The position numbers and the translations under genes are program-made. The notes under the pieces were generated by a model. That model did no database searches and was not told where the DNA came from. It saw nothing but the letters and a program-made list of their open reading frames with translations. From a virus, in IMG/VR virus record IMGVR_UViG_3300037755_000828, positions 30,860-94,859 of that record: a stretch of 64,000 nt of DNA; one strand, 5' to 3'. Below are positions 21,027 through 47,484 of this stretch, piece by piece; the stretch's first letter is position 1, and each line of letters starts with the position of its first letter.

Positions 21027-21114
21027 CGTCACGCAAGCGTAGCAGCGTTCTGCTCGGCCGAGCCCGAGCAGATTTTTCTCCTCTGCGCCGAGGCTGGCGC
21101 CTATCAATTCGGAA

Positions 21115-21138
21115 GCGAGTCAACAGCGAGTCAACAGC
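21115..21138 (+). repeat. Left attP arm: tandem GCGAGTCAACA direct repeats
   Basis: Two 11-bp units; the same units occur at 21351-21376. Confidence 0.85.
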
Positions 21139-21152
21139 CAACACCAGAAACG

Positions 21153-21176
21153 ACAAAACCCCGGCCAGCGGGGTTT
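21153..21176 (-). terminator. Intrinsic terminator after tRNA 3' half
   Basis: 8-bp stem AAACCCCG/CGGGGTTT, T-rich tail on minus strand. Confidence 0.8.
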
Positions 21177-21182
21177 CTGAAG

Positions 21183-21228
21183 AGCGGGAGACGGGATTCG
21201 AACCCGCGACATTCAGCTTGGGAAGCTG
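21183..21228 (-). other. attP core: 3' half of tRNA-Gly(CCC)
   Basis: CAGC-TTCCCAA-GCTG anticodon arm, GCGGG-TTCGAAT-CCCGT T arm, CTCCCGC-T acceptor strand; no D arm or 5' acceptor strand. Confidence 0.92.
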
Positions 21229-21350
21229 TCGCCGGTGCCGGCGCTCGGCGCCGTGGTAGTGATCCTGCACGTGACGCCGCGAACAACACGCTTGATCATC
21301 ACCGCATGCGGTCGGCGGCAGCGCCGGCCCTTCTTGCAACCAAGCCGGAT

Positions 21351-21376
21351 CGAGTCAACAGCGAGTCAACAGCGAG
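21351..21376 (+). repeat. Right attP arm: tandem CGAGTCAACAG direct repeats
   Basis: Same unit as left arm, immediately before integrase ATG. Confidence 0.85.
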
Positions 21377-21386
21377 GTCCTCGCCG

Positions 21387-22748
21387 ATGTCGCTGACCGA
21401 CGCCAAGGTCCGCGCAACCAAGCCGGGCCCCAGGCAGATCGTGCTCACCGACGACCTCGGGCTCGAGCTGCTCGTCACCCCCGCCGGCGCCAAGCTCTGG
21501 CGCTTCCGCTACCGCGGCGGCAAGAAGCAGCGGCGGATCACGATCGGGCGCTACCCCGAGATCGGCCTCGCTGCCGCCCGCGCCGAGGCGGCCCAGCTCC
21601 GCGCGCGCGTGTGGGCGGGCGAGGACCCGGGGCGCCGCGAGCCCGAGCCGGCCCCGACAGCGGCGCCCGAGGCCGTCGAGCCCGAGAGCGTCGACGACGT
21701 CGTGGATCGGTACATCGTCGAGCACGCCGAGCCCGGGCTCGGCTGGAAGCGCAGCACCGCTCGGACCTACCGCTCGGCGCTCGCCACCTTCACGGCGTGG
21801 GCTGGGAGTTCCGGCGTGCTGACGGTCGCCGATGTCACCCCAGCCGCGCTCGCGCGGTTCCGGGCACACGTGGTCTCGATGCCTCGCCGCGCGAAGGCCA
21901 AGGGCGGGAGCCGGCGCGACGTGATCAGCACCGGCGAGCAGCGATCCGCGGCGGCGGTCAACTGCGAGATCAGGGCGGTCAAGACGATGCTGCAGGCGCT
22001 GCGCCGAGCAGGCACGATGCCCGAGCTCACAAGCGACGCGATCACCGACAACCTTGGCCTGCTCCCGCTTGAGCATGCCAGGCCTGATCCACTCCGCCCC
22101 GCGCAGCTCCGCGAGCTCCTGGCCGCGTGCTGGGATCACGACCTCGAGCATGAGCCGATCGGACCGCTGGTCGTGGTCATGTTGCTCGGGGGCCTGCGAC
22201 TTGGCGAAGCGCTGCGGCTCGCCTGGGATGCGGTCGACCTCGACGAGCTCGTGGTCCGCGTGCGGGCTGGCAAGACCAACCGCGAGCGCGACGTCGACCT
22301 CAGCGTGTCGCCGGCCCTGGCTCGCCTGCTTGCCGAGCTGCGCGGCTCGACGCGCTCGGGTCCGGTGTTCGTGCACTCGCAGCAGACCGCCCTCGACGCT
22401 CGCCAACGACTGATCAGCCGCTACGGTGCGCCCGCGTTCCTGTGGTCCACCAGGCACTCTCGACCCGGCGATCGCTCAGCCCCAACGCTGCGCAGCACCT
22501 GCGGCTGTTACCTCACCAACGCCCCATCGATCTTCGGCGCTGCGTCGATCTACCGGAGCGCCGCGCAGCTCGGGCACTCCGCCGAGGTTGCGCAACAGCA
22601 CTACCTCGGCACCCTCCGTCGGATCCCGCGCGACGCGACACGCTCGAGGCCGCGATGCAGATCGTCAGCGAGCTCGAGCCACCGAGCCGAGGTCGTCTTC
22701 GCATCGTCGGCGCGTGAGCTCAGAACAGGTTCTGCTGCCCGAACTTGA
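21387..22748 (+). CDS. int: Tyrosine integrase with P4-type arm-binding N-terminal domain (native end probably 22717)
   Basis: LTDAKVR..KP...GLELLVTPAGAKLWRFRY...IGRYPEIGL; GLRLGE, KT, TLR, LGH, HY. Confidence 0.95.
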   Translation: MSLTDAKVRATKPGPRQIVLTDDLGLELLVTPAGAKLWRFRYRGGKKQRRITIGRYPEIGLAAARAEAAQLRARVWAGEDPGRREPEPAPTAAPEAVEPESVDDVVDRYIVEHAEPGLGWKRSTARTYRSALATFTAWAGSSGVLTVADVTPAALARFRAHVVSMPRRAKAKGGSRRDVISTGEQRSAAAVNCEIRAVKTMLQALRRAGTMPELTSDAITDNLGLLPLEHARPDPLRPAQLRELLAACWDHDLEHEPIGPLVVVMLLGGLRLGEALRLAWDAVDLDELVVRVRAGKTNRERDVDLSVSPALARLLAELRGSTRSGPVFVHSQQTALDARQRLISRYGAPAFLWSTRHSRPGDRSAPTLRSTCGCYLTNAPSIFGAASIYRSAAQLGHSAEVAQQHYLGTLRRIPRDATRSRPRCRSSASSSHRAEVVFASSARELRTGSAART

Positions 22749-28287: not shown

Positions 28288-28693
28288 CGAGCTTGCTCCC
28301 GCCGGCTCGGGGAATGAAGTCTCCGTCCGCGTATAAAACACCGTCCGCGTCGATGTGAGTCGGGAACATGCCCTTGGCGACCGCGCGCGGATCGAAGTGC
28401 GCGGGCTCGGCCGAGGGCTTGGGCTCGGGCAGAGGGCCAGCGTCAAGGATCGCGGGTCGACCCGGGATCCGGATGACCGCCGATGTGGCGCAGCTTAGCG
28501 CCCGCGTGGCGAGCTGCTCAACATTGGAGACGTGGCGGCGGTAGGCTGCCATCTCCTCATCGACGTACGCGAACGCGGCCAGGAACCCGTGCGTGAACGC
28601 GGCCTCGCCATCCTGCCGAACCTCGCCACGCTCGAGCGCGAGAGCGAAGGCGCGCTCCGCCATGATCTCGACCTTGCCTTGACTCGTGGTCAT
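28280..28693 (-). CDS. Hypothetical protein
   Basis: ATGA coupling to sigma gene; no anti-sigma HxxxCxxC motif. Confidence 0.65.
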   Translation of the reverse strand: MTTSQGKVEIMAERAFALALERGEVRQDGEAAFTHGFLAAFAYVDEEMAAYRRHVSNVEQLATRALSCATSAVIRIPGRPAILDAGPLPEPKPSAEPAHFDPRAVAKGMFPTHIDADGVLYADGDFIPRAGGSKLDE

Positions 28694-29337
28694 GCGCTTG
28701 CGCTCCGCTCGGTCATGCGCGTGCTCGCGCGGTTGCCCGGCTCGGTGTCGCCGTCGCGCACGAAGCCGATCTCGCTCGCGTGATCGTGCAGCAGCTTGTG
28801 CAAGATCCTGCGGCCTCGGTAGATCCGGCTCATGACCGTGCCGAGCGGGCACTCCATGTAGTCGGCGATCTCCTTGTAAGACAGGCCTTCGAAGTCGGCG
28901 AGGGTGATCGCTAGTCGATAATCCGTCGGCAAAGAGTCGAGGGCTTCGAGGACCCGGGCCTGCGTGACCCCGGCGGAGACGGCCTCCTCGGGGCCCGGCG
29001 GATGACTGTTCGAGTTGCCGAGCGCGACGGTGTCGCCGATCGCGTTCATCTGCGAAGTCACGTCGCTCTCGAAGCGACGCTTGCGACCCCGGCGGTGATA
29101 GCCGGTGATGAACGTGTTGCGCACGATCGTGAACATCCACGCCTTGATGTTGGTGCCCGGCTGAAACGAACTCCAGAACCGGAAGGCCCGCACCAGCGAG
29201 TCCTGAACGAGATCCTCGGCTTCCTCCGGGTTTCGGGTCAGGCGCATCGCCGCGCCGTAGAGGTTGTTGTAGAGAGGCAACACAGCCGCCTCGAACTCGC
29301 GCCTCGCGGCGGCTGGCATCTCGATGTGGGCGCTCAT
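28690..29337 (-). CDS. ECF RNA polymerase sigma factor, SigH/SigR (ECF12)-like
   Basis: LYGAAMRLTRNPEEAEDLVQD, FQPGTNIKAW, SYKEIADYMECPLGTVMSRIYRGR. Confidence 0.96.
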   Translation of the reverse strand: MSAHIEMPAAARREFEAAVLPLYNNLYGAAMRLTRNPEEAEDLVQDSLVRAFRFWSSFQPGTNIKAWMFTIVRNTFITGYHRRGRKRRFESDVTSQMNAIGDTVALGNSNSHPPGPEEAVSAGVTQARVLEALDSLPTDYRLAITLADFEGLSYKEIADYMECPLGTVMSRIYRGRRILHKLLHDHASEIGFVRDGDTEPGNRASTRMTERSASA

Positions 29338-39461: not shown

Positions 39462-39845
39462 CTATCCGCCGAACAATTCGAGCTGCTCGTGGGCTCGGGG
39501 CCGAAGCTCGACAAGTCGCGCAGACACGCCATCGAGAGCGACGTCTCGATCACCACCAGGGAACCACTCCTCTGGGTGTCGATCCCAGTACCCGGCTGAC
39601 GCGGGCTTGAACATCTTGATCTCGAGTCGCCGGCCCGCGTGCCCGAGCACCATGATCTCGGTCTCGCGTTCGAGCGATTGCGGCCGCTCGAGCACAACGG
39701 CTTCGAGCACGCGGGCGAGCGTGGCGACGACGACCCGCGACCCAGGCTCCGCCGAATGCCAGATCATCCAGTTGATTCGCCGCGATTCCCTCGTGTCGAC
39801 TGCATAGAACAGGTCGCGCGCGCGTTCGCTGGGCAAGCCGTTCAC
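39462..39845 (-). CDS. Hypothetical protein ending in QLELF
   Basis: GTGA overlap with MTase stop. Confidence 0.6.
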   Translation of the reverse strand: MNGLPSERARDLFYAVDTRESRRINWMIWHSAEPGSRVVVATLARVLEAVVLERPQSLERETEIMVLGHAGRRLEIKMFKPASAGYWDRHPEEWFPGGDRDVALDGVSARLVELRPRAHEQLELFGG

Positions 39846-41317
39846 TCCCCAGACGCCAGGATCCGCGTGAGCAGGGCCTCGACCTGCTCCTCGTTGCGGC
39901 GCCCGGCCTGCTCGATGTACGGCAGTCGCGGCATCGGCAGCGCGCGGAGCTCCGTCGCCGACACCTGGGTGGTCCCGCTGATCATGCGGATGTACTGGTC
40001 GTAGAGCTGCGAGTTGAGGATCGCCGCGAGCCCGCGGGCCTCGCCTACGCCGATGCCCTCCGGCTGCAGCTGGTCGCCGGTCCGGTGGATGTAGTTCAGG
40101 TGGTTCTCGAGCCCGATGCTCTTGTAGTCCCAGTCCTTGGCGATCAGCGGCGCGGCCGTGATCCGGCGCGCGTCCTCCTTCGCCGATACCCTCCGCACGA
40201 GCACGTAGTTCTTCAGCGGCGTCAGGTTGAGCGAAGGTGTGCGCACGCGCTCGGGCTTGCGGAAGCCGTCGACCGGCCAGGTCACCGCCCCGCGCTTGAC
40301 GTGCTGCATCCACAGGAGCGGGACCCCGGGCCCAGTCTCGTTGACGCCCGCGAGCTCGGCGGTGCAGCGGAACGGCACGACCGGCCCCGTGCTCACCTTG
40401 AGCCCGAGGCTGGCGATCGTCGAGTCGAACCGGCAGATCTTCCGCCCGGCCTCGAACTGTTCGAAAGTGCTCGGCAGCGCGAGCGCCCCGTTGATGTTCA
40501 AGTCCTTGCGCTCGACCACGAAAGCCGCGTCGCCATACCCGAGCCTCGACTCCGGGTAGCCCGAGGGCAGATCATCGAGCCCGGCCGACGACGAGATCAC
40601 CACCGCATCCTCGGCGGTGGCGCGGCGCTTCTCGTACACGACCACGATGCTCTCCTGCAGCACGTCGTCTCGACCAAAGGCCATCCGCCGCGAGTCGAAG
40701 GTGTGCACCGAGTCGAGCTGCATCATCTCGTGGAACTGCTCCCGGAATCGCCGGAAGTACCAGCCGGACAAGTAGCTGCGCGGGACCACGAAGCACAGCC
40801 GCCCGCCCTCGCGCAGCAGCCCGGCCGCCACGGTCATGAACCGCGCGTAGATGTTGGGCGCGTCGCCGCTGCGCCTGTCCTTGGGCGAGAGCTTGAAGTA
40901 CGGCGGGTTCGCGATCGCGATGTCGAACGGCTCGCTGCCGAAGCACAGCTTCGAGAGGAAGTCGCCGCCCATCCACTGGGTGTCGATCCGCTTGCCGAAC
41001 CTGGCCTTGGCGCTGGCGAGCGAGTCGGTCAGCTGCGAGCAGGCGTCGCGCTCGTGCTCGACGCTCACGAGTTCGACGCGCGCGACCTTGCGCCGCTCGA
41101 GCAGCTCATCCGCCAGCCCGAGCCCGAGCGAACCGGTGCCGGCGCCGGGGTCCAGGATCCGCACGCAGCGATCCACGGGCCCCGCTGCTGCGGCCTGCGC
41201 CATGAATGCGACGAGTTTCGCGGGCGTGAAGTACTGCCCCCACTGCTTGCGATGCTCGGGGCTGATCGACTGCCGGAGCCTCTCGCCGCGCTCGAGCGAG
41301 GCTCCGAGATCGGTCAT
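39842..41317 (-). CDS. Orphan N6-adenine DNA methyltransferase (Eco57I/PstI/BsuBI-like)
   Basis: GQYFTP, ILDPGAGTG, IANPPY, VSTGPVV, ENHLN, GTTQVSATEL. Confidence 0.92.
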   Translation of the reverse strand: MTDLGASLERGERLRQSISPEHRKQWGQYFTPAKLVAFMAQAAAAGPVDRCVRILDPGAGTGSLGLGLADELLERRKVARVELVSVEHERDACSQLTDSLASAKARFGKRIDTQWMGGDFLSKLCFGSEPFDIAIANPPYFKLSPKDRRSGDAPNIYARFMTVAAGLLREGGRLCFVVPRSYLSGWYFRRFREQFHEMMQLDSVHTFDSRRMAFGRDDVLQESIVVVYEKRRATAEDAVVISSSAGLDDLPSGYPESRLGYGDAAFVVERKDLNINGALALPSTFEQFEAGRKICRFDSTIASLGLKVSTGPVVPFRCTAELAGVNETGPGVPLLWMQHVKRGAVTWPVDGFRKPERVRTPSLNLTPLKNYVLVRRVSAKEDARRITAAPLIAKDWDYKSIGLENHLNYIHRTGDQLQPEGIGVGEARGLAAILNSQLYDQYIRMISGTTQVSATELRALPMPRLPYIEQAGRRNEEQVEALLTRILASGE

Positions 41318-41508
41318 GAACCTGACCCCGACTTGATGTTCCGTTCGGCGGTCCTGTAGCCACGAGACCACTCACGGTGCTCAGTGGTGCCGCGCGTATA
41401 AGGGTTCGATTTCACCGACCTAGCAGCCTGCTGAGCAGCTCGGCCTTCCCGAAAAGCCTCGGGACTTCGATCGCGGCGTCGATGTGGATTTTGTGGACCG
41501 TTGCCCAT
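41314..41508 (-). CDS. Ribosome modulation factor (Rmf/CrpP-fold)-like protein
   Basis: RRRDRSPEAFREGRAA...NPY...REWSRGYR parallels RMF RDR..A..G..A...CPY...W..GWR. Confidence 0.65.
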   Translation of the reverse strand: MGNGPQNPHRRRDRSPEAFREGRAAQQAARSVKSNPYTRGTTEHREWSRGYRTAERNIKSGSGS

Positions 41509-41832
41509 CTACTCTGACAGCTCCTCTGCAGCCTCGCGCAGACCGTCGAGCACGCTCGCGGCGCGCAGCATCTCGGCGGCCGAGATGGCGCGCTCGCCCT
41601 CGTCGCTGTCCAGATCCGCGTCGTCGACCACGTCGGCCGCGTCTCGCAGGGCTTCAGGAAGCGAGGCAAGACCGATCACGACGCGACCCATGAACTCGAT
41701 GTCGAGGGCGCCCCAGTCGATGCAGGTGACGACGGTGGTGTAGGCGTCGCCAAGTGGACCGCCGAAGTTGGCGTTGGCGAGGGAGTTGAACATGGTGCGG
41801 ATCGGGTGGCGGATCGGGTGGTGGCTGGTCAT
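41509..41832 (-). CDS. Hypothetical protein
   Basis: ATG 29 nt from ECF -35. Confidence 0.65.
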   Translation of the reverse strand: MTSHHPIRHPIRTMFNSLANANFGGPLGDAYTTVVTCIDWGALDIEFMGRVVIGLASLPEALRDAADVVDDADLDSDEGERAISAAEMLRAASVLDGLREAAEELSE

Positions 41833-43547
41833 TCGACGTCTACCGCATCCGGCTCGCCTACATTCCCCCAAACGCTCCCGAGCGGCGGCTTGTCCGGGTT
41901 GTGCCCGCGCTTGCGCAGGTAGGCGGCCGCGAGCTTGCGCATCGCGTCGGGGTCCGTCTTGACCTCGAGCAGCCGCTCGCCCTTCGGATCAAGCACGCCG
42001 TCGGACTGCCAGCGCTTCACGCCAAGCGCGTCGAGGATCACCGGGTCGGAGCCCTCGTCGGCGAGCATCCAATATTCCATGGTCGGCGCGGCCTGGCCGT
42101 CGCGATGGATTCGCCCAGTCAGCTGCTGGTGCACGTGCGGGGACCAGTCGAGCTCGCCGTGCACCACCCGGTGGCAGACGTCCTGCAGCCCGTCGATCCC
42201 CTGACCCGAGCGCAGGCTCATGATCAACAGCTTGCTCTCGCCCGAGATCAGCGCCTGCGCAGCCGCGTCCTTTTCCTTGCTGCCCTCGTGCCCGGTGTAG
42301 AAGGCCGGCTTCCAGCGCGCGAGCTTCTGGCGCCAGATGTCGTAGACGTCGTGGTGCCAGCCGGACAGCAGCACCGGCTCGCCCGTGGTCTCGAGCAGCT
42401 CGTCGACGAAGGCCGCGACCGCGGGTGCCTTGGAGACGCCCGTCCAGCGACGCAGCTTGTAGTCGATCTCGCCGCGCGCCAGGAACCTGTCCTTGGGCGC
42501 GCCGTAGAGCGCCTGCCAAGCGAGGTCCTCGAGCTCGCCGCCGAGCCTCCCATCGAGCGGCACGTCGACCACGCTGCGGATGATCGGAGGAAGCTCGCGG
42601 CCGACGTCGACGCGGGAGCGCCGGAGCATCAATCCTTGCTCGCGCAGCCACGCTCCGAAGGCCACGGGATCCACGATGCGCAGCTTCTCGTCGGTGCCCG
42701 CACACCACTCGCGGGTGAACTCGGCCCGCTCCCCAAGCGCACCGGGACAGATCACGCCAAGCACGTTGTAGAACTCCCCGCCGTAGTTGAAGATCGGCGT
42801 CGCGCTCAGGGCCATGCAGCGCAGCGCCTTAGTGCGCAGCTCGAGCGCGCCGATGTACTTGCGCGTGCCGGCGTGGCGCAGCTCGTGGGCCTCATCGAAG
42901 ACAACCGCGCACGCCTCGAGTTCGGAGCCCCAAGCGGTGAGCCGCGAGTAGGCCATCACGATCACGTCCGCCCGCGCGCGCTTGGCCGCGCGGCGCTTGC
43001 TCTCCCCGCTCGGGCTGGACCGGACCACGTACACTTTCGCGCTCGGCAGGAACTCGGCGAGCTTGCGTTCCCACTGCTCGAGCACGTTGAGCGGGACCAC
43101 GACCACCGCCGGCAGGTTGCCCTTGCGCGCGAGCAGGGCGATCGCCGTCACGGTCTTGCCCAGCCCGAGCTCGTCGGCGCACAGGAGCCCGCCCATCGTG
43201 TCGCACAGCTCGGCCGCCAGGTCCTGGTAGTCGCGCGCGGGCTTGGCCATCGCCAGCTGCGGTCGCGCGTAGGTGCCGGTCAGGGCGAGTTGAATCCGCG
43301 CCAGCGCGTCGCGGTGAGCTTGAGCGAGCCGCTGCAGCTTGGCCGCAGTCTTCGGGCCCGCGTCCATCGGAAAGCGGCTGACGAACCACTCCAGCTCGGC
43401 GCTCACGGCCGGGGTCGCGCTCAGCCGCAGCCGCTTGCTGGCGACGTCGACGCGCGGAAACCAACGCTTGACCATGATCGAGACGTGCGGCGTCACGTCA
43501 TCGAGCACCCACGAGTTGCCCTCGTGGACCAGGCTGCCGTAGGTCAC
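41829..43547 (-). CDS. SNF2-family SF2 helicase
   Basis: LCADELGLGKT, FDEAH, LSATP, QLTGRIHRDGQ. Confidence 0.93.
   Translation of the reverse strand: MTYGSLVHEGNSWVLDDVTPHVSIMVKRWFPRVDVASKRLRLSATPAVSAELEWFVSRFPMDAGPKTAAKLQRLAQAHRDALARIQLALTGTYARPQLAMAKPARDYQDLAAELCDTMGGLLCADELGLGKTVTAIALLARKGNLPAVVVVPLNVLEQWERKLAEFLPSAKVYVVRSSPSGESKRRAAKRARADVIVMAYSRLTAWGSELEACAVVFDEAHELRHAGTRKYIGALELRTKALRCMALSATPIFNYGGEFYNVLGVICPGALGERAEFTREWCAGTDEKLRIVDPVAFGAWLREQGLMLRRSRVDVGRELPPIIRSVVDVPLDGRLGGELEDLAWQALYGAPKDRFLARGEIDYKLRRWTGVSKAPAVAAFVDELLETTGEPVLLSGWHHDVYDIWRQKLARWKPAFYTGHEGSKEKDAAAQALISGESKLLIMSLRSGQGIDGLQDVCHRVVHGELDWSPHVHQQLTGRIHRDGQAAPTMEYWMLADEGSDPVILDALGVKRWQSDGVLDPKGERLLEVKTDPDAMRKLAAAYLRKRGHNPDKPPLGSVWGNVGEPDAVDVE
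41841..41866 (-). promoter_or_regulatory. ECF-type promoter GGAAT-N18-GTA (drives rmf-like and MTase genes)
   Basis: 29 nt to ATG 41832. Confidence 0.75.
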
Positions 43548-43894
43548 AGACGCGGGAGGAACACCACGAACAGCGGCTTGCCGTTGATCTGCGCCGGAAT
43601 CGAGCGCTGCTTCGCCGACGCGGTCACCAACACCAGATCCTCGATCGCCGGATCCTCCGCGTACATCGTCAGCTGCCGTAGCACCCGCTCCGCCGTCCCC
43701 TGCACCTTGAGCTCGATCGCTGTCGAGCCCGCCCGCAGATCCACCCGGCCCCGCTTCAACGCGACCTCGGTCTCGGGGATCAGGTTCGCCCCCCGGAGGG
43801 CCGCTCGTACGTCCTCGACTAAGATAGACTCGGGCCCCGGGCGCGGGACGAGCTGGCTGAGAATCTCGAGAACGTCGGCGCTTCGGCTTGTCAT
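43544..43894 (-). CDS. PD-(D/E)XK nuclease-like protein
   Basis: EV....GRVDL.....IELK....RQL..YA. Confidence 0.75.
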   Translation of the reverse strand: MTSRSADVLEILSQLVPRPGPESILVEDVRAALRGANLIPETEVALKRGRVDLRAGSTAIELKVQGTAERVLRQLTMYAEDPAIEDLVLVTASAKQRSIPAQINGKPLFVVFLPRL

Positions 43895-45114
43895 TGGTCA
43901 CCCGATGGCTCCCCGCCGGGCGGCTCGACGGTACCACCGAGTGCGTCAGCAACGAGTTTGGTTGTTTTCTCGAACTCCGCGCGGAAGCCAACAAGCGGCG
44001 CGCCCAACTCGACCACAACATCCGACCCGACCCGACCGGCGCATTCTTCAATCTCTTCGAGTTTCACGCGGATCCGCAACAGGTCGGCGCGTGGGATGTT
44101 GTCGAGATCGGCGCGGACGATGTTGAATTCGCGGGCAATCTCGTTGGCCAGCAACCTGGTGATGTCGCCATCGCCCAGGCGCACGACGACCTCGCCGCTC
44201 GGCTCGGGCTGGACGAGCTGGGCGCGCCACTCGTCGGCTTGACGATCAGCTCGCGCGTGCGCGGCCGCCCGCTGTTCGGCGAGCTGGGCCCGCAGCTGCT
44301 CGACCTCGCGCTGGAGCAGCGCCGCCTCGAACTCTGGCTCTGGCTTGCGCGGCATGGTCGCGGCTACGGCGATCTCCGCGACGGTCCGGCGGAGCCCGTC
44401 GCGGTTGTCCGCGATCCCGCGAGCGCCGTAGCCCGCTCGTAGGATGACCTCGAGCATCGCGTTCGCACCCTCCATGCGGGCCCACTCGATCCGGTCGTCG
44501 TGGCCCTCGGGCTCGGGCTCGAGCAGGACCGCGAGCATCCGCTGGATCACGTCCTCGGCATCGCTGTCGGCAATGCTGTCGCTCGCCGCGATCGCGCGGG
44601 CGATCACACCCTTGTGAACTTCGAGCTGTTCGTCGCGATCTTCGAGGAGCGCGCGCGCCACTTCATCCGCGTGCTCGTAGGGGCACTCGTTCAGCGCTTC
44701 GCCGTCCCAGCCGAGCCGGCGAAGGACGAGATCAAGTTGTTCGCGGAGCACTTCGGCAATGGAGTCTTCGGCCATGGAACACGGCAACGCGACCGCCGCG
44801 TCGCTATTCCCGCGCAGCTCGAGCGCAAGCGCCTCCAATGCACGACCGACCGCCTTTGCGGTTTTGCCGTCCGGCCACCGATCGAGCTGATCCGAGACCG
44901 ACTGGCAGGCCGCCAGCACCGTGGTGTGGTGCCGCCCGACGAGCCGGCCGATCACAGGGAAGCTCAGGCGGGTCTGGGTGCGTATCAGGTAGAACGCGAC
45001 CAGGCGAGGCGCCGCAATGGTGCTGATCCGAGACCGGCCGAGGAGCGCATCGACGGTGATGTCGTTGGCGCGCGCGACCGCGGCGAGGATGTTCACCGGC
45101 TTGGTGTCGCTCAT
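43891..45114 (-). CDS. DnaA C-terminal (domain IV) HTH fused to a coiled-coil region
   Basis: LLGRSR...APRLVAFYLIR..TRLSFPVIGRLVGRHHTTVLAA. Confidence 0.85.
   Translation of the reverse strand: MSDTKPVNILAAVARANDITVDALLGRSRISTIAAPRLVAFYLIRTQTRLSFPVIGRLVGRHHTTVLAACQSVSDQLDRWPDGKTAKAVGRALEALALELRGNSDAAVALPCSMAEDSIAEVLREQLDLVLRRLGWDGEALNECPYEHADEVARALLEDRDEQLEVHKGVIARAIAASDSIADSDAEDVIQRMLAVLLEPEPEGHDDRIEWARMEGANAMLEVILRAGYGARGIADNRDGLRRTVAEIAVAATMPRKPEPEFEAALLQREVEQLRAQLAEQRAAAHARADRQADEWRAQLVQPEPSGEVVVRLGDGDITRLLANEIAREFNIVRADLDNIPRADLLRIRVKLEEIEECAGRVGSDVVVELGAPLVGFRAEFEKTTKLVADALGGTVEPPGGEPSGDQ
44786..44810 (-). promoter_or_regulatory. Intragenic ECF-type promoter GGAAT-N17-GTT
   Basis: 30 nt to in-frame ATG 44775. 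Confidence 0.7.
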
Positions 45115-46163
45115 AGCCAGTCCTGATCATCAGGCTCATCTCGCCCAGGGATGTTGATGCCGCAGTCCTCAAGCGAGAGCCACAGCCCGCGCATCGCCTT
45201 GTCGGCTTCTCGTAGGTTCTTGTCGAGCTCAAGCGCGATGACGTCCAGGTCCACGATCGGCTCCGGTTCATAGGCTGGCGGTGCTGCGGCTTGGATCGGC
45301 TCCGACGGCTCGGCGCCTTGGGTGATCGTGATCGTGCATGTCCTGACCCCGGTCCCGCTGGATGCGAAGGCCCCAGGCTGGTGATCGATGACCTTCGCTC
45401 CGATGCGGGAGAGCCAGCCCCGGAGCGCCTTGAGTCGCTTCTTTGAGCTGCTCTCCCATGTCCCGCGCGGCGCCACGCAGGCGAGCACGCCACCGGGCGC
45501 GAGCAGACTGAACGCTCGCCGCAGATGCGTCTCCCAGGCGACGGGATCGCCGTCGACCGAGAAAGGCGGGTTCATGATGATCACGTTGAACAGCTGCCCG
45601 CCGAAGTCGACGGCGAGGAAGTCCGCCTCGGCCACGACCGCACACGCGCCATCGAGCATCGCGGCGTTCAGGGGGTCGAGTTCGACCGCGGTGATCCGGG
45701 CTTGCGGCCAGCGAGCGTGTGCGGCAGCAACGAGGGCGCCAGACCCGGCCGAGGGCTCGAGGATGAACATGGGATCGGCCGCAACCTCAAGCCCTCGAAC
45801 GATCTCGGCGGCGAGCTCAGCCGGCGTCGGGAAGTAGGCGAGCGGGTTCTTGGCCGGCATCCGCCCGCTGGCGATCACGGTGTTGATCGCTGCCGTTGGA
45901 TCGTACGGAAACACGTGGCCCTTGCGCCGCTTCCACGCGCCGCGCAGTCGAGTGAGCACGTCGTTGAGTTCGTCGTAGACCGCGGGCTCGGCCTTGGGCA
46001 GCGGCCGCACGGTGTTGCTCTCGATAACCGCCGAGCGGAGCAGCGCGAGCACGGGCGGACTGACGCGCGGGCCCAGGTCGATGGGTGCTGGTTCGACCGC
46101 GGGCTGCGCGAGCTCGGGCATCTGCTGTTGGAACAGATCGACCTGCGCGCTCGCCTTGCTCAT
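45111..46163 (-). CDS. Orphan N6-adenine DNA methyltransferase
   Basis: YFPTP, ILEPSAGSG, IMNPPF. Confidence 0.9.
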   Translation of the reverse strand: MSKASAQVDLFQQQMPELAQPAVEPAPIDLGPRVSPPVLALLRSAVIESNTVRPLPKAEPAVYDELNDVLTRLRGAWKRRKGHVFPYDPTAAINTVIASGRMPAKNPLAYFPTPAELAAEIVRGLEVAADPMFILEPSAGSGALVAAAHARWPQARITAVELDPLNAAMLDGACAVVAEADFLAVDFGGQLFNVIIMNPPFSVDGDPVAWETHLRRAFSLLAPGGVLACVAPRGTWESSSKKRLKALRGWLSRIGAKVIDHQPGAFASSGTGVRTCTITITQGAEPSEPIQAAAPPAYEPEPIVDLDVIALELDKNLREADKAMRGLWLSLEDCGINIPGRDEPDDQDWL

Positions 46164-46336
46164 GGCTGACCACCGGTCCCCAGAAAACCGACGAGTGAGC
46201 CGACCAGGCCGAACGCGAAAATCAGCGCGACCCAGACATCGCCAACGTAGGCGGCCACGAACAGCGCCACCACACAGAGCATGCAGAGCACCGCGAAGAT
46301 CACGAGCAACGGTAAAGGCGGCGGCGATTCCAGCAT
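46160..46336 (-). CDS. Small two-TM membrane protein
   Basis: Two hydrophobic segments; ATG 30 nt from ECF -35. Confidence 0.65.
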   Translation of the reverse strand: MLESPPPLPLLVIFAVLCMLCVVALFVAAYVGDVWVALIFAFGLVGSLVGFLGTGGQP

Positions 46337-46345
46337 GGACCTGGC

Positions 46346-46371
46346 TACTCGCCTTCGTCGGATGGCATTCC
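46346..46371 (-). promoter_or_regulatory. ECF-type promoter GGAAT-N18-GTA
   Basis: 30 nt to ATG 46336. Confidence 0.75.
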
Positions 46372-46452
46372 CGCCGCGTCTTCGCTTCCGATTTCTTGAC
46401 CGGAAAAGTCGCCGGGCTGTTCGGGCCTGTGGAAGCCCGCTGGCAGCTGGGG

Positions 46453-47484
46453 CTAGGTTGCCAAGTGCGAAGGGTCCCCACGCCCGGTAGCCGCCAAGAT
46501 CACGGCCATGGCCAGGTCGATCGGCACGGCGTTTCCGAGCAGCTTGGCGGAGTCGCGGGCGTTGGTGTCGAGCAGCTTGTAGGAGTCGGGGAATCCTTGG
46601 CTGCGCTTGACTTCGTTCTTGGTCCACAACCGGTATTCCCCGTCGCGCGTCCACCAAAGCTGGCCCGCCTGGCCGGTGACCGTGTTGACGGGCTCGGACG
46701 CCGGGATTCCCCAATATCCATAGTTGGTGTGCTGACCGATCCCGAGCGCGCCGTTGAGCCGCTGGTTGGACTGGCGCGCCTTTTCCTTGGCGGACAGGTA
46801 GCCCTTCTCTCGAGCTTTTGCAGAGGGCTCGCGGTCGGGCATGTCCTCGATGTTGATCCACCCGCGTTCGCCGGCGTCGAAGATCGTACCCACCCCGGGC
46901 TCGAGCACGTCGGGGTTGATCATCTGCACGGGCGGCCCGCCCAAGACGCCGATGAAGAACCACCGCCATCGACGTTGGGGCAGCCCGAACTTGGACGCGC
47001 ACAGGAACTGCTGCGTCACCGCGTAGCCGAGCTTGCGCAGGGCGGCGAGCCAGCGTTGAAAATCTTTCCAGCGGATGAACCCGCGCACGTTCTCGACAAT
47101 CAGGTACTTCGGCCGGCAGACCTGCGCGCACTTCCAAACCGCCCATGCGGTCACGCGCATCTGGGCGTGGCTGTCGAACACCTTCCTGCTGGTCGCGCGG
47201 CCGATCTGCCCGGCGTCGCTGTGGCCCTGGCAAGCGCAGCCGGCAGTGAGGATGTCGAACGGGTCGAGCTCGGCGAACTTGAATCCCAGCAGGTTGCGCT
47301 GCAGGTGCTCGGTGTCCCGGTGGTTCGCGGCGTGCACCCGGATCGCCCGGGGCCAGTGGTTCACCGCGAGGGTGACGTCGATGCCCGCGCGCTCCATCGC
47401 CAGCGTGAAGCCGCCCAGGCCGCAGAACATGTCATTGCCCTTCAGGCCGGTGCTGACGGCCTCGGCATGCTGGCGCATCAGCAT
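46453..47484 (-). CDS. Orphan C5-cytosine DNA methyltransferase
   Basis: DMFCGLGG, ACQGHS, ENV, PQRR.R, GNAV. Confidence 0.93.
   Translation of the reverse strand: MLMRQHAEAVSTGLKGNDMFCGLGGFTLAMERAGIDVTLAVNHWPRAIRVHAANHRDTEHLQRNLLGFKFAELDPFDILTAGCACQGHSDAGQIGRATSRKVFDSHAQMRVTAWAVWKCAQVCRPKYLIVENVRGFIRWKDFQRWLAALRKLGYAVTQQFLCASKFGLPQRRWRWFFIGVLGGPPVQMINPDVLEPGVGTIFDAGERGWINIEDMPDREPSAKAREKGYLSAKEKARQSNQRLNGALGIGQHTNYGYWGIPASEPVNTVTGQAGQLWWTRDGEYRLWTKNEVKRSQGFPDSYKLLDTNARDSAKLLGNAVPIDLAMAVILAATGRGDPSHLAT

What the first reader, a model, noticed from the sequence alone, without database searches (positions are those of the whole stretch)
41314..41508. RMF-like protein inside the ECF regulon: possible bias of ribosomes toward leaderless phage mRNAs
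Seen: a 64-aa basic protein whose pattern aligns by eye with ribosome modulation factor. It is the second gene after the ECF promoter at 41866 and is coupled to an MTase. Established: E. coli RMF binds the 30S subunit near the anti-Shine-Dalgarno region, and leaderless mRNAs initiate without SD pairing. Inference: many phage genes here are leaderless or joined by ATGA/GTGA overlaps, so an RMF-like factor could suppress SD-led host translation while sparing phage messages. Rmf/CrpP-fold proteins also occur in mobile elements with unknown roles, so this is a hypothesis.
Basis: inference. Interest (0 to 1): 0.8.

Follow-up and report, generated by a model that had tools for sequence, protein, structure and literature searches.

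The report
Basic RMF-fold protein in myxophage
A temperate phage, probably of marine myxobacteria, carries a real 64-residue relative of the bacterial ribosome-silencing factor RMF, but it is an optional, foreign-looking gene that sister phages with the same leaderless gene expression lack, so no tie to leaderless translation is supported and its target is unknown.

Summary
Window 41314-41508 (-) encodes a 64-aa, strongly basic protein (pI 11.5). It passes Pfam RMF (40.9 bits, cut-off 27.9) and folds as a two-helix hairpin whose best structural matches are solved RMFs. It is the second gene behind a leaderless ECF-type promoter (GGAAT at 41866, ATG at 41832) and overlaps a PstI/BsuBI-type adenine methyltransferase by ATGA.

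It is not a true RMF. It scores 18.3 bits against a cut-off of 40 on NCBI's RMF model. Two of the five arginines and lysines that grip 16S rRNA are replaced by conserved acidic residues. The probable host group (Nannocystaceae, Myxococcota) has no RMF gene in the genomes searched.

The link to leaderless translation is not supported. Two complete sister phages have the same sigma factor and the same leaderless promoters but no RMF-like gene, no such methylase and no upstream 107-aa gene. The phage also uses Shine-Dalgarno sites, for example at its major head gene. GC3 of the gene is 54%, against 83-94% in its neighbours.

Best reading: an acquired, accessory polynucleotide-binding Rmf/CrpP-fold protein of unknown target.

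The parts
41314..41508 (-). RMF-like (Rmf/CrpP-fold) gene: 64 aa, pI 11.5, two helices (residues 16-27 and 42-61)
   Evidence: Pfam PF04957 at 40.9 bits. AF2 pLDDT 84.3. RMF structures are the top hits. GC3 is 0.54.
41833..41866 (-). ECF-type promoter-like motif: GGAAT 41866-41862, 17-nt spacer, GGT 41844-41842. It puts the predicted transcript start on the A of ATG 41832 (leaderless). It lies inside the 3' end of the helicase gene.
   Evidence: Sequence. 20 of 36 minus-strand GGAAT[AG] sites have an ORF start at +33 to +36, against 0 of 5 on the plus strand. The transcript start is inferred; no RNA data exist.
41509..41832 (-). First gene of the unit: acidic 107-aa protein of no known family (weak DUF4259 match, E 0.0075, below cut-off)
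   Evidence: Absent from both sister phages.
39842..41317 (-). Third gene: 491-aa gamma-class N6-adenine DNA methyltransferase of the PstI/BsuBI type. No restriction enzyme was seen beside it. Its start overlaps the RMF-like stop (ATGA).
   Evidence: Pfam Eco57I/N6_Mtase. PADLOC MTase_II at 3.5e-90. 30% identity over residues 8-488 to Stx-phage methylases that sit beside a BsuBI endonuclease.
41829..44051 (-). SNF2-family helicase upstream (true start uncertain). Its stop overlaps the ATG of the 107-aa gene, and its C-terminal tail holds the promoter motif.
   Evidence: Pfam SNF2-rel_dom at 1.9e-25. 65% identical copy in sister phage G007, which ends earlier and is followed by unrelated genes.
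28690..29337 (-). Phage ECF sigma factor presumed to read the GGAAT promoters
   Evidence: Sigma70_r2 and r4_2. TIGR02937 at 89 bits. 70-72% identical to Enhygromyxa and Plesiocystis sigma factors.

Best explanation
The ORF is a real gene for a small, strongly basic two-helix protein of the Rmf/CrpP fold. It belongs to a rare diverged branch with the signature NPYxRGTxEHREWSRG[WY]R. It shares ancestry with ribosome modulation factor but is not an RMF orthologue.

The gene is a horizontally acquired accessory gene in a variable three-gene insert: an acidic 107-aa protein, the RMF-like protein, and an orphan PstI/BsuBI-type adenine methylase. The insert sits at the end of the SNF2 helicase gene of a temperate myovirus-like phage whose host is probably a Nannocystaceae myxobacterium. 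It is probably transcribed from a leaderless ECF-type promoter and translated by coupling (TAG|ATG, then ATGA).

Inferred mechanism: the basic N-terminal tail (HRRRDR) and the helical hairpin bind a polynucleotide during the early or middle DNA-modification phase. I favour a role tied to the co-translated methylase or to DNA or RNA handling, at about 0.4. An RMF-like block of the 30S anti-SD site gets about 0.25. Either way the protein is not an integral part of the phage's leaderless expression system.
For: Identity and fold: Pfam RMF at 40.9 bits. AF2 pLDDT 84.3. Foldseek top three hits are RMF 2jrm, 9iot and 6h4n, with prob 0.85-0.99 and TM 0.58-0.69. VIA-align top hit is 4v8g RMF, Z 6.5, rmsd 2.1 A over 51 of 53 residues.

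Distinct branch: only 48 relatives at E<=1e-3 among 1.84 billion representatives. The conserved signature is seen in alignments A1 and A2.

Polynucleotide binding: pI 11.5, and the closest short relatives have pI 10-11.4. A 57%-identical relative (P0004) is fused to an R3H single-strand-binding domain.

Accessory and acquired: the gene is absent from two complete sister phages that keep the sigma factor and the promoters. The methylase and the 107-aa gene are absent from them too. GC3 is 0.54 against 0.83-0.94 in the neighbours.

Linkage to the methylase: the ATGA overlap. In a contig that is about 94% alike, 1001 other letters sit 28 nt upstream of the RMF-like ATG while the RMF-like gene and the methylase stay joined.

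Setting: three methylases and an SNF2 helicase lie within 8 kb.
Against: No binding of any kind was tested.

The different GC3 of the RMF-like gene (0.54) and the methylase (0.94) argues that the two did not arrive together.

In other phages, RMF-fold genes sit next to other partners: RNR, glutaredoxin-like and MazG-like genes in marine phages, and DprA-like and macro-domain genes in Agrobacterium phage Milano. No methylase association recurs.

Linkage in a variant that is 94% alike is expected from common descent.

The RDR motif, Lys5 and Arg8 equivalents and the net charge are RMF-like, so a ribosomal target stays possible.
Confidence: 0.45

Rival explanations
1. First reader's model. The protein binds the host 30S subunit at the anti-Shine-Dalgarno region like RMF. 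It suppresses SD-led host translation while leaderless and coupled phage messages go on being translated.
For: RMF fold and Pfam membership. Net charge +8. The Lys5 and Arg8 equivalents and the R-D-R motif are kept. About 20 phage genes have promoters that place the transcript start on the start codon. No RMF-family gene over the cut-off was found in 5 Nannocystaceae genomes or in 301 genomes of the phylum, so the factor would be new to the cell.
Against: Two complete sister phages run the same ECF leaderless regulon without any RMF-family gene. SD cores are enriched before phage starts (26% against 10%, p = 5e-5). They precede the major head, portal and protease genes, which such a factor would also hit. 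The RMF-like gene itself is not leaderless: GAGGAG lies 12 nt upstream and it depends on coupling. The Arg11 and Arg15 equivalents are Glu, and this is conserved in the branch. The S1-contact residues Glu10, Arg37 and Gln39 are not kept. In E. coli, RMF makes inactive dimers rather than specialised ribosomes (PMC10502375).
Confidence: 0.09
2. General translation modulator. The protein binds rRNA or the ribosome somewhere, not necessarily at the RMF site. It damps or protects host ribosomes during infection or lysogeny, without selectivity for leaderless mRNA.
For: Common ancestry and fold with an rRNA-binding protein. A basic tail like that of RMF. The closest fused relative carries an R3H domain, which binds single-stranded RNA or DNA.
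Against: The canonical interface is only partly kept. There is no HPF partner in the phage. The gene is dispensable in sister phages. It sits in a DNA-modification module. Many relatives of the fold are strongly acidic, so the fold itself is not tied to rRNA.
Confidence: 0.16
3. Protein-binding host-takeover or counter-defence module. The hairpin is a scaffold that binds a host protein, for example a restriction or other defence component, and complements the three protective methylases nearby.
For: The fold occurs as 2-4 tandem copies in very acidic proteins (pI about 4.2), some with an FtsK-gamma domain. This fits a versatile binding module. The gene is variable and accessory, with foreign composition, as is typical of counter-defence genes. 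The invariant surface residues of the branch (H44, R45, E46, R49) differ from those of RMF.
Against: No match to any PADLOC model. No known anti-defence family resembles it. The strong positive charge fits nucleic acid better than a specific protein partner.
Confidence: 0.2

Closest known systems
Ribosome modulation factor RMF of Gammaproteobacteria (Pfam PF04957; NCBIfam NF011162; PDB 2JRM, 4V8G, 6H4N, 9IOT)
   Same: Same size class, same two-helix hairpin and same family signature (G, A, P-Y, W, G, R). It has a basic N-terminal tail with an R-D-R motif. The Lys5 and Arg8 equivalents are kept. About 31% identity over 45 residues.
   Different: Scores 18.3 bits against a cut-off of 40 on the RMF equivalog model. 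The Arg11 and Arg15 equivalents are conserved Glu/Asp and Arg3 is His. It is encoded by a phage of a probable myxobacterial host, not by a gammaproteobacterial chromosome. There is no HPF partner in the phage. The invariant residues of its own branch (RGT.EHREWSRG) are absent from RMF.
Rmf/CrpP-fold proteins of phages and mobile elements (NCBIfam NF041886 Rmf_CrpP_fam, NF041887 Rmf_like_phage; PHROG 1757 and 10492; e.g. Agrobacterium phage Milano gp60; CrpP of Pseudomonas ICEs)
   Same: Small single-domain proteins of the RMF fold, encoded by mobile DNA among early or DNA-metabolism genes, with untested function. This is the best NCBIfam match (25.3 bits). PHROG 1757 gives E 3.7e-5.
   Different: It falls just below the NF041886 cut-off (28) and far below NF041887 (40). 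It is 35-45% identical at best to catalogued phage members. It is strongly basic, whereas many relatives are neutral or acidic. CrpP's claimed ciprofloxacin kinase activity has been disputed in the literature (papers listed) and says nothing about this protein.
RMF-like plus R3H fusion protein P0004 (137 aa, metagenomic, unnamed)
   Same: 57% identity over residues 9-54, with the same branch signature and the same basic tail.
   Different: It carries a C-terminal R3H domain (61 bits) that the phage protein lacks. Its genomic context is unknown (contig of 2.1 kb).

Membership tests
RMF sensu stricto (ribosome modulation factor) | Match to the Pfam RMF model above the gathering score | tested here: met
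   40.9 bits against 27.9, E 2.1e-10
RMF sensu stricto (ribosome modulation factor) | Match to NCBI's equivalog model NF011162 above its cut-off | tested here: not met
   18.3 bits against 40
RMF sensu stricto (ribosome modulation factor) | Two-helix RMF fold | tested here: met
   AF2 pLDDT 84.3. Foldseek 2jrm prob 0.99, TM 0.63/0.66. VIA-align 4v8g_AV Z 6.5, rmsd 2.1 A over 51 residues. The domain is tiny, so E-values and Z are modest.
RMF sensu stricto (ribosome modulation factor) | Conserved basic residues Arg3, Lys5, Arg8, Arg11 and Arg15 that hydrogen-bond the 16S rRNA backbone (Beckert et al., bioRxiv 10.1101/382572) | tested here: not met
   Equivalents by the phmmer alignment are H9, R11, R14, E17 and E21. 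Two are kept and two are charge-reversed. E21 is E/D in 14 of 17 branch members.
RMF sensu stricto (ribosome modulation factor) | Chromosomal gene of Gammaproteobacteria that acts with short HPF | tested here: not met
   Phage record. The probable host is Nannocystaceae. No PF04957 hit over the cut-off in 5 Nannocystaceae genomes or 301 genomes of the phylum. No HPF in the phage.
RMF sensu stricto (ribosome modulation factor) | Binds the 30S subunit and drives 90S/100S dimer formation | not testable with these tools
   Needs co-sedimentation or cryo-EM
Rmf/CrpP-fold proteins of phages and mobile elements | Match to NF041886 (Rmf_CrpP_fam) or NF041887 (Rmf_like_phage) above the cut-off | tested here: inconclusive
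   NF041886 gives 25.3 against 28 and is the best NCBIfam hit. NF041887 gives 21.5 against 40. PHROG 1757 E 3.7e-5 and PHROG 10492 E 1.2e-3.
Rmf/CrpP-fold proteins of phages and mobile elements | Small stand-alone RMF-fold protein encoded by a mobile element outside any ribosomal context | tested here: met
   64 aa, in a 94.9-kb temperate phage, between an SNF2 helicase and a DNA methylase

The most novel reading that the evidence does not exclude
A phage of a host lineage that has no RMF of its own has imported a basic RMF-fold protein that still docks at the 30S platform or anti-SD region. The protein tilts initiation towards the roughly 20 leaderless transcripts of the phage's ECF regulon. 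This would be a virus-encoded ribosome specialisation factor.
Probability: 0.09. Interest if true: 0.8.

Novelty: new member of a known kind. Interest (0 to 1): 0.3.

Why it matters
Rmf/CrpP-fold miniproteins are common in phages and conjugative elements, and no function has been shown for any of them. Most phage copies seen so far are acidic or neutral, which already argues against a ribosomal role. This copy is one of a rare basic branch that keeps part of RMF's RNA-gripping tail, so it is a good candidate for a direct test of whether any mobile-element member still binds ribosomes or nucleic acid.

The comparative result also matters. The leaderless ECF regulon is a lineage trait of these myxophage-like viruses and does not need the RMF-like gene. 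That removes the most exciting reading.

Tried and rejected
- The protein-atlas search could not be reached for the 107-aa protein.
- Searches for loci encoding the single protein found nothing in viral contigs or genome contigs.
- The metagenome scan gave one 1.3-kb locus (L014) whose ORFs do not look RMF-like, so I set it aside.
- tblastn against plasmids gave no match.
- The methylase has no close relative in viral contigs.
- A profile of alignment A2 found nothing in 401 genomes of the host phylum. That model was inflated to 163 positions by two long rows.
- Foldseek with the single-sequence model (pLDDT 67) returned nothing.
- My first guess at the promoter, GGAAT-N14-19-CGTC, occurs at chance level. 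The real motif has GGT/GTT as its -10 part.
- No RNA holder was listed among the public runs, so expression and the transcript start are untested.
- The Polikanov 2012 paper was not held.
- Literature searches found no functional study of a phage RMF-like protein.
- A controller-protein (C-protein) reading was rejected: there is no HTH fold and no restriction gene beside the methylase.

Full report
WHAT IS THERE

The window is bases 30860-94859 of a 94,859-bp IMG/VR virus record judged 97% complete. It has 66% G+C, and nearly all genes lie on the minus strand. PHROG matches to a tail sheath, tape measure, major head protein, head protease, portal and large terminase show a tailed phage with a contractile tail. 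An earlier first-reader note describes an attP site and an integrase.

The ORF at 41314-41508 (-) encodes 64 residues with 14 K+R and 6 D+E, pI 11.5. It passes the Pfam RMF model: E 2.1e-10, 40.9 bits against a gathering score of 27.9, residues 10-55 on profile positions 4-49 of 53. The only PDB sequence matches are E. coli RMF, aligned end to end but weakly (E 0.4).

An AlphaFold2 model built on 17 homologues has mean pLDDT 84.3, with a core above 90 and helices at 16-27 and 42-61. Foldseek ranks Vibrio RMF 2jrm first (prob 0.99, TM 0.63/0.66), then E. coli RMF in 9iot and 6h4n. VIA-align 2, run against 48,161 representative chains, ranks ribosome-bound RMF 4v8g first (Z 6.5, rmsd 2.1 A, 51 of 53 residues). 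The scores are modest because the domain is tiny, and generic helical hairpins follow within one Z unit.

CONTEXT

The motif at 41866 is real. On the minus strand of the whole phage, 36 copies of GGAAT[AG] occur. In 20 of them an ATG or GTG that opens a high-GC3 ORF lies 33-36 nt downstream, nearly always 34 or 35. On the plus strand the figure is 0 of 5. A GGT or GTT sits 17 nt after GGAAT. With its T at -10, the first base of the start codon becomes +1. This is the architecture of an ECF promoter that drives leaderless mRNAs. It is an inference, because no RNA data exist.

A phage ECF sigma gene lies at 28690-29337. At the locus in question, GGAAT is at 41866-41862, GGT at 41844-41842 and ATG at 41832. 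The unit then reads as follows:
- an acidic 107-aa protein (41832-41509) with no family match;
- TAG followed directly by the ATG of the RMF-like gene;
- the RMF-like gene;
- an ATGA overlap;
- a 491-aa gamma-class N6-adenine methylase (41317-39842).

The methylase matches PADLOC MTase_II at 3.5e-90. It is 30% identical over residues 8-488 to the methylases of Stx phages that sit beside a BsuBI endonuclease. No endonuclease was seen here. Upstream lie an SNF2 helicase, an MTS-type methylase and a C5 cytosine methylase. This is a DNA-modification module.

NOT A TRUE RMF

NCBI's RMF equivalog model gives 18.3 bits against a cut-off of 40. The best NCBIfam match is the mobile-element model Rmf_CrpP_fam, at 25.3 against 28.

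Beckert et al. (bioRxiv 10.1101/382572) name Arg3, Lys5, Arg8, Arg11 and Arg15 as the conserved residues that hydrogen-bond the 16S rRNA backbone. They name Glu10, Arg37 and Gln39 as contacts to S1. Through the HMMER alignment, the five become H9, R11, R14, E17 and E21. Two are kept and two are charge-reversed. E21 is Glu or Asp in 14 of 17 members of the protein's own branch. The S1 contacts become P16, H44 and E46.

The branch has strongly conserved residues of its own (NPYxRGTxEHREWSRG[WY]R). An exhaustive HMMER search of 1.84 billion representatives found only 48 relatives at E<=1e-3.
- The short relatives are basic, like this protein.
- One relative, 57% identical, carries an R3H domain.
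- Many longer relatives hold 2-4 copies of the fold in very acidic proteins (pI about 4.2), two of them with an FtsK-gamma DNA-binding domain.

The fold is therefore a versatile module and is not tied to ribosomes.

HOST

The sigma factor is 70-72% identical to proteins of Enhygromyxa salina and Plesiocystis pacifica. A 48-nt stretch of the reported attP region matches their genomes at 100%. Nannocystaceae (Myxococcota) is the most likely host group. No PF04957 match above the cut-off was found in five such genomes or in 301 genomes sampled from the phylum. The phage has no HPF. The gene is thus not a captured host gene.

TEST OF THE LEADERLESS IDEA

The terminase found two complete phages with terminal repeats, G006 (80.8 kb) and G007 (97.5 kb), at 74-78% identity.
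- Both encode the sigma factor (58-60% identity).
- Both show the same promoter-to-start architecture, with 13 of 32 and 23 of 35 GGAAT[AG] sites.
- Neither has any RMF-family gene, the PstI-type methylase or the 107-aa gene.
- G007 has the helicase (65% identity), but it ends earlier and is followed by unrelated genes. The promoter of the unit lies in a C-terminal extension of the helicase that G007 lacks.

The leaderless regulon is therefore a lineage trait that works without the RMF-like gene.

The phage is also not free of Shine-Dalgarno sites. An SD core lies 4-16 nt before 24 of 91 predicted starts, against 89 of 860 internal ATG/GTG codons (odds ratio 3.1, p = 5e-5). The sites include GAGGA 6 nt before the major head gene and GAGG 5 nt before the portal and protease genes. 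A factor that masks the anti-SD would hit these late genes. The RMF-like gene itself is not leaderless: GAGGAG lies 12 nt upstream and its start abuts the preceding stop.

ORIGIN AND UPKEEP

G+C by codon position is 0.60/0.65/0.54 for the RMF-like gene. GC3 is 0.86 in the 107-aa gene, 0.94 in the methylase and 0.83 in the helicase. The RMF-like gene looks recently imported from a lower-GC source, and probably not together with the methylase.

Contigs from sediment metagenomes of three studies hold the stretch unchanged; one of them may be the source of this DNA. A 31-kb contig of a fourth study is about 94% alike across the methylase and the RMF-like gene, with no listed indel in the latter. 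It has 1001 other letters 28 nt upstream of the RMF-like ATG. In that variant the RMF-like gene stays joined to the methylase while the junction with the 107-aa gene varies. This is weak evidence for linkage, because the two variants are close kin.

In other phages, RMF-fold genes lie among early DNA or nucleotide-metabolism genes but with other neighbours. These are RNR, glutaredoxin-like and MazG-like genes in marine phages (read by eye) and DprA-like and macro-domain genes in Agrobacterium phage Milano.

VERDICT

The best reading is an acquired accessory Rmf/CrpP-fold protein that binds a polynucleotide. I put about 0.4 on a role in DNA or RNA handling tied to the methylase cassette, about 0.25 on any ribosomal role (0.09 for the specific leaderless model) and about 0.2 on a protein-binding counter-defence role. 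None of these was tested by binding.

This scan has already noted RMF-fold phage proteins in at least 74 other genomes. This copy differs mainly in being basic.

Noticed in passing
whole phage G000; G006 (L060-L063); G007 (L064-L068): Three related phages share one promoter architecture: GGAAT[AG], about 17 nt, GGT/GTT, then a start codon exactly 34-35 nt after the first G. Counts are 20 of 36, 13 of 32 and 23 of 35 sites. Each phage has its own ECF sigma. This amounts to a conserved leaderless sigma regulon in a phage lineage.
   Followed up: partly
window 28690-29337 and 21100-21400: The host is probably Nannocystaceae (Myxococcota), not Actinobacteria. The sigma factor is 70-72% identical to Enhygromyxa and Plesiocystis proteins, and 48 nt of the attP region match their genomes at 100%.
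   Followed up: partly
window 39842-47484 (-): Three DNA methyltransferases lie within 8 kb: C5 cytosine (46453-47484), MTS-type (45111-46481) and PstI/BsuBI-type N6-adenine (39842-41317). An SNF2 helicase lies with them and no endonuclease was seen.
   Followed up: partly
window 41829-41880 (-): The helicase of this phage has a C-terminal extension that its 65%-identical homologue in G007 lacks. That extension encodes the promoter of the downstream three-gene unit. The inserted unit seems to have fused its control region onto the helicase reading frame.
   Followed up: partly
window 41536-41539 and 41797: A 31-kb contig from another study, about 94% alike, has 1001 other letters 28 nt upstream of the RMF-like start and a 12-nt deletion in the 107-aa gene. 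This junction is a hot spot of variation.
   Followed up: no
window 41314-41508 (-): GC3 of the RMF-like gene is 0.54, against 0.83-0.94 in its neighbours, although the Pfam match and its homologues show that it is a real gene.
   Followed up: yes
proteins P0008-P0045: There are many long, very acidic proteins (pI about 4.2, 250-640 aa) with 2-4 RMF-fold repeats. P0015 and P0016 also carry an FtsK-gamma domain. This architecture is unexplained.
   Followed up: partly
L006 5684-5944; L008 5914-6174; L010 5896-6195: In low-GC, probably marine, phages a basic 86-99-aa RMF-like gene sits directly after genes that look like a class II ribonucleotide reductase and a glutaredoxin, and before a MazG-like gene. 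The neighbours were read by eye from translations and not scanned against families.
   Followed up: no
window 41509-41832 (-): The leaderless first gene of the unit encodes an acidic 107-aa protein with an Asp/Glu-rich stretch. It has only a sub-threshold DUF4259 match (E 0.0075) and no PHROG, NCBIfam or PADLOC match. It may be a partner of the basic RMF-like protein, but this was not tested.
   Followed up: no
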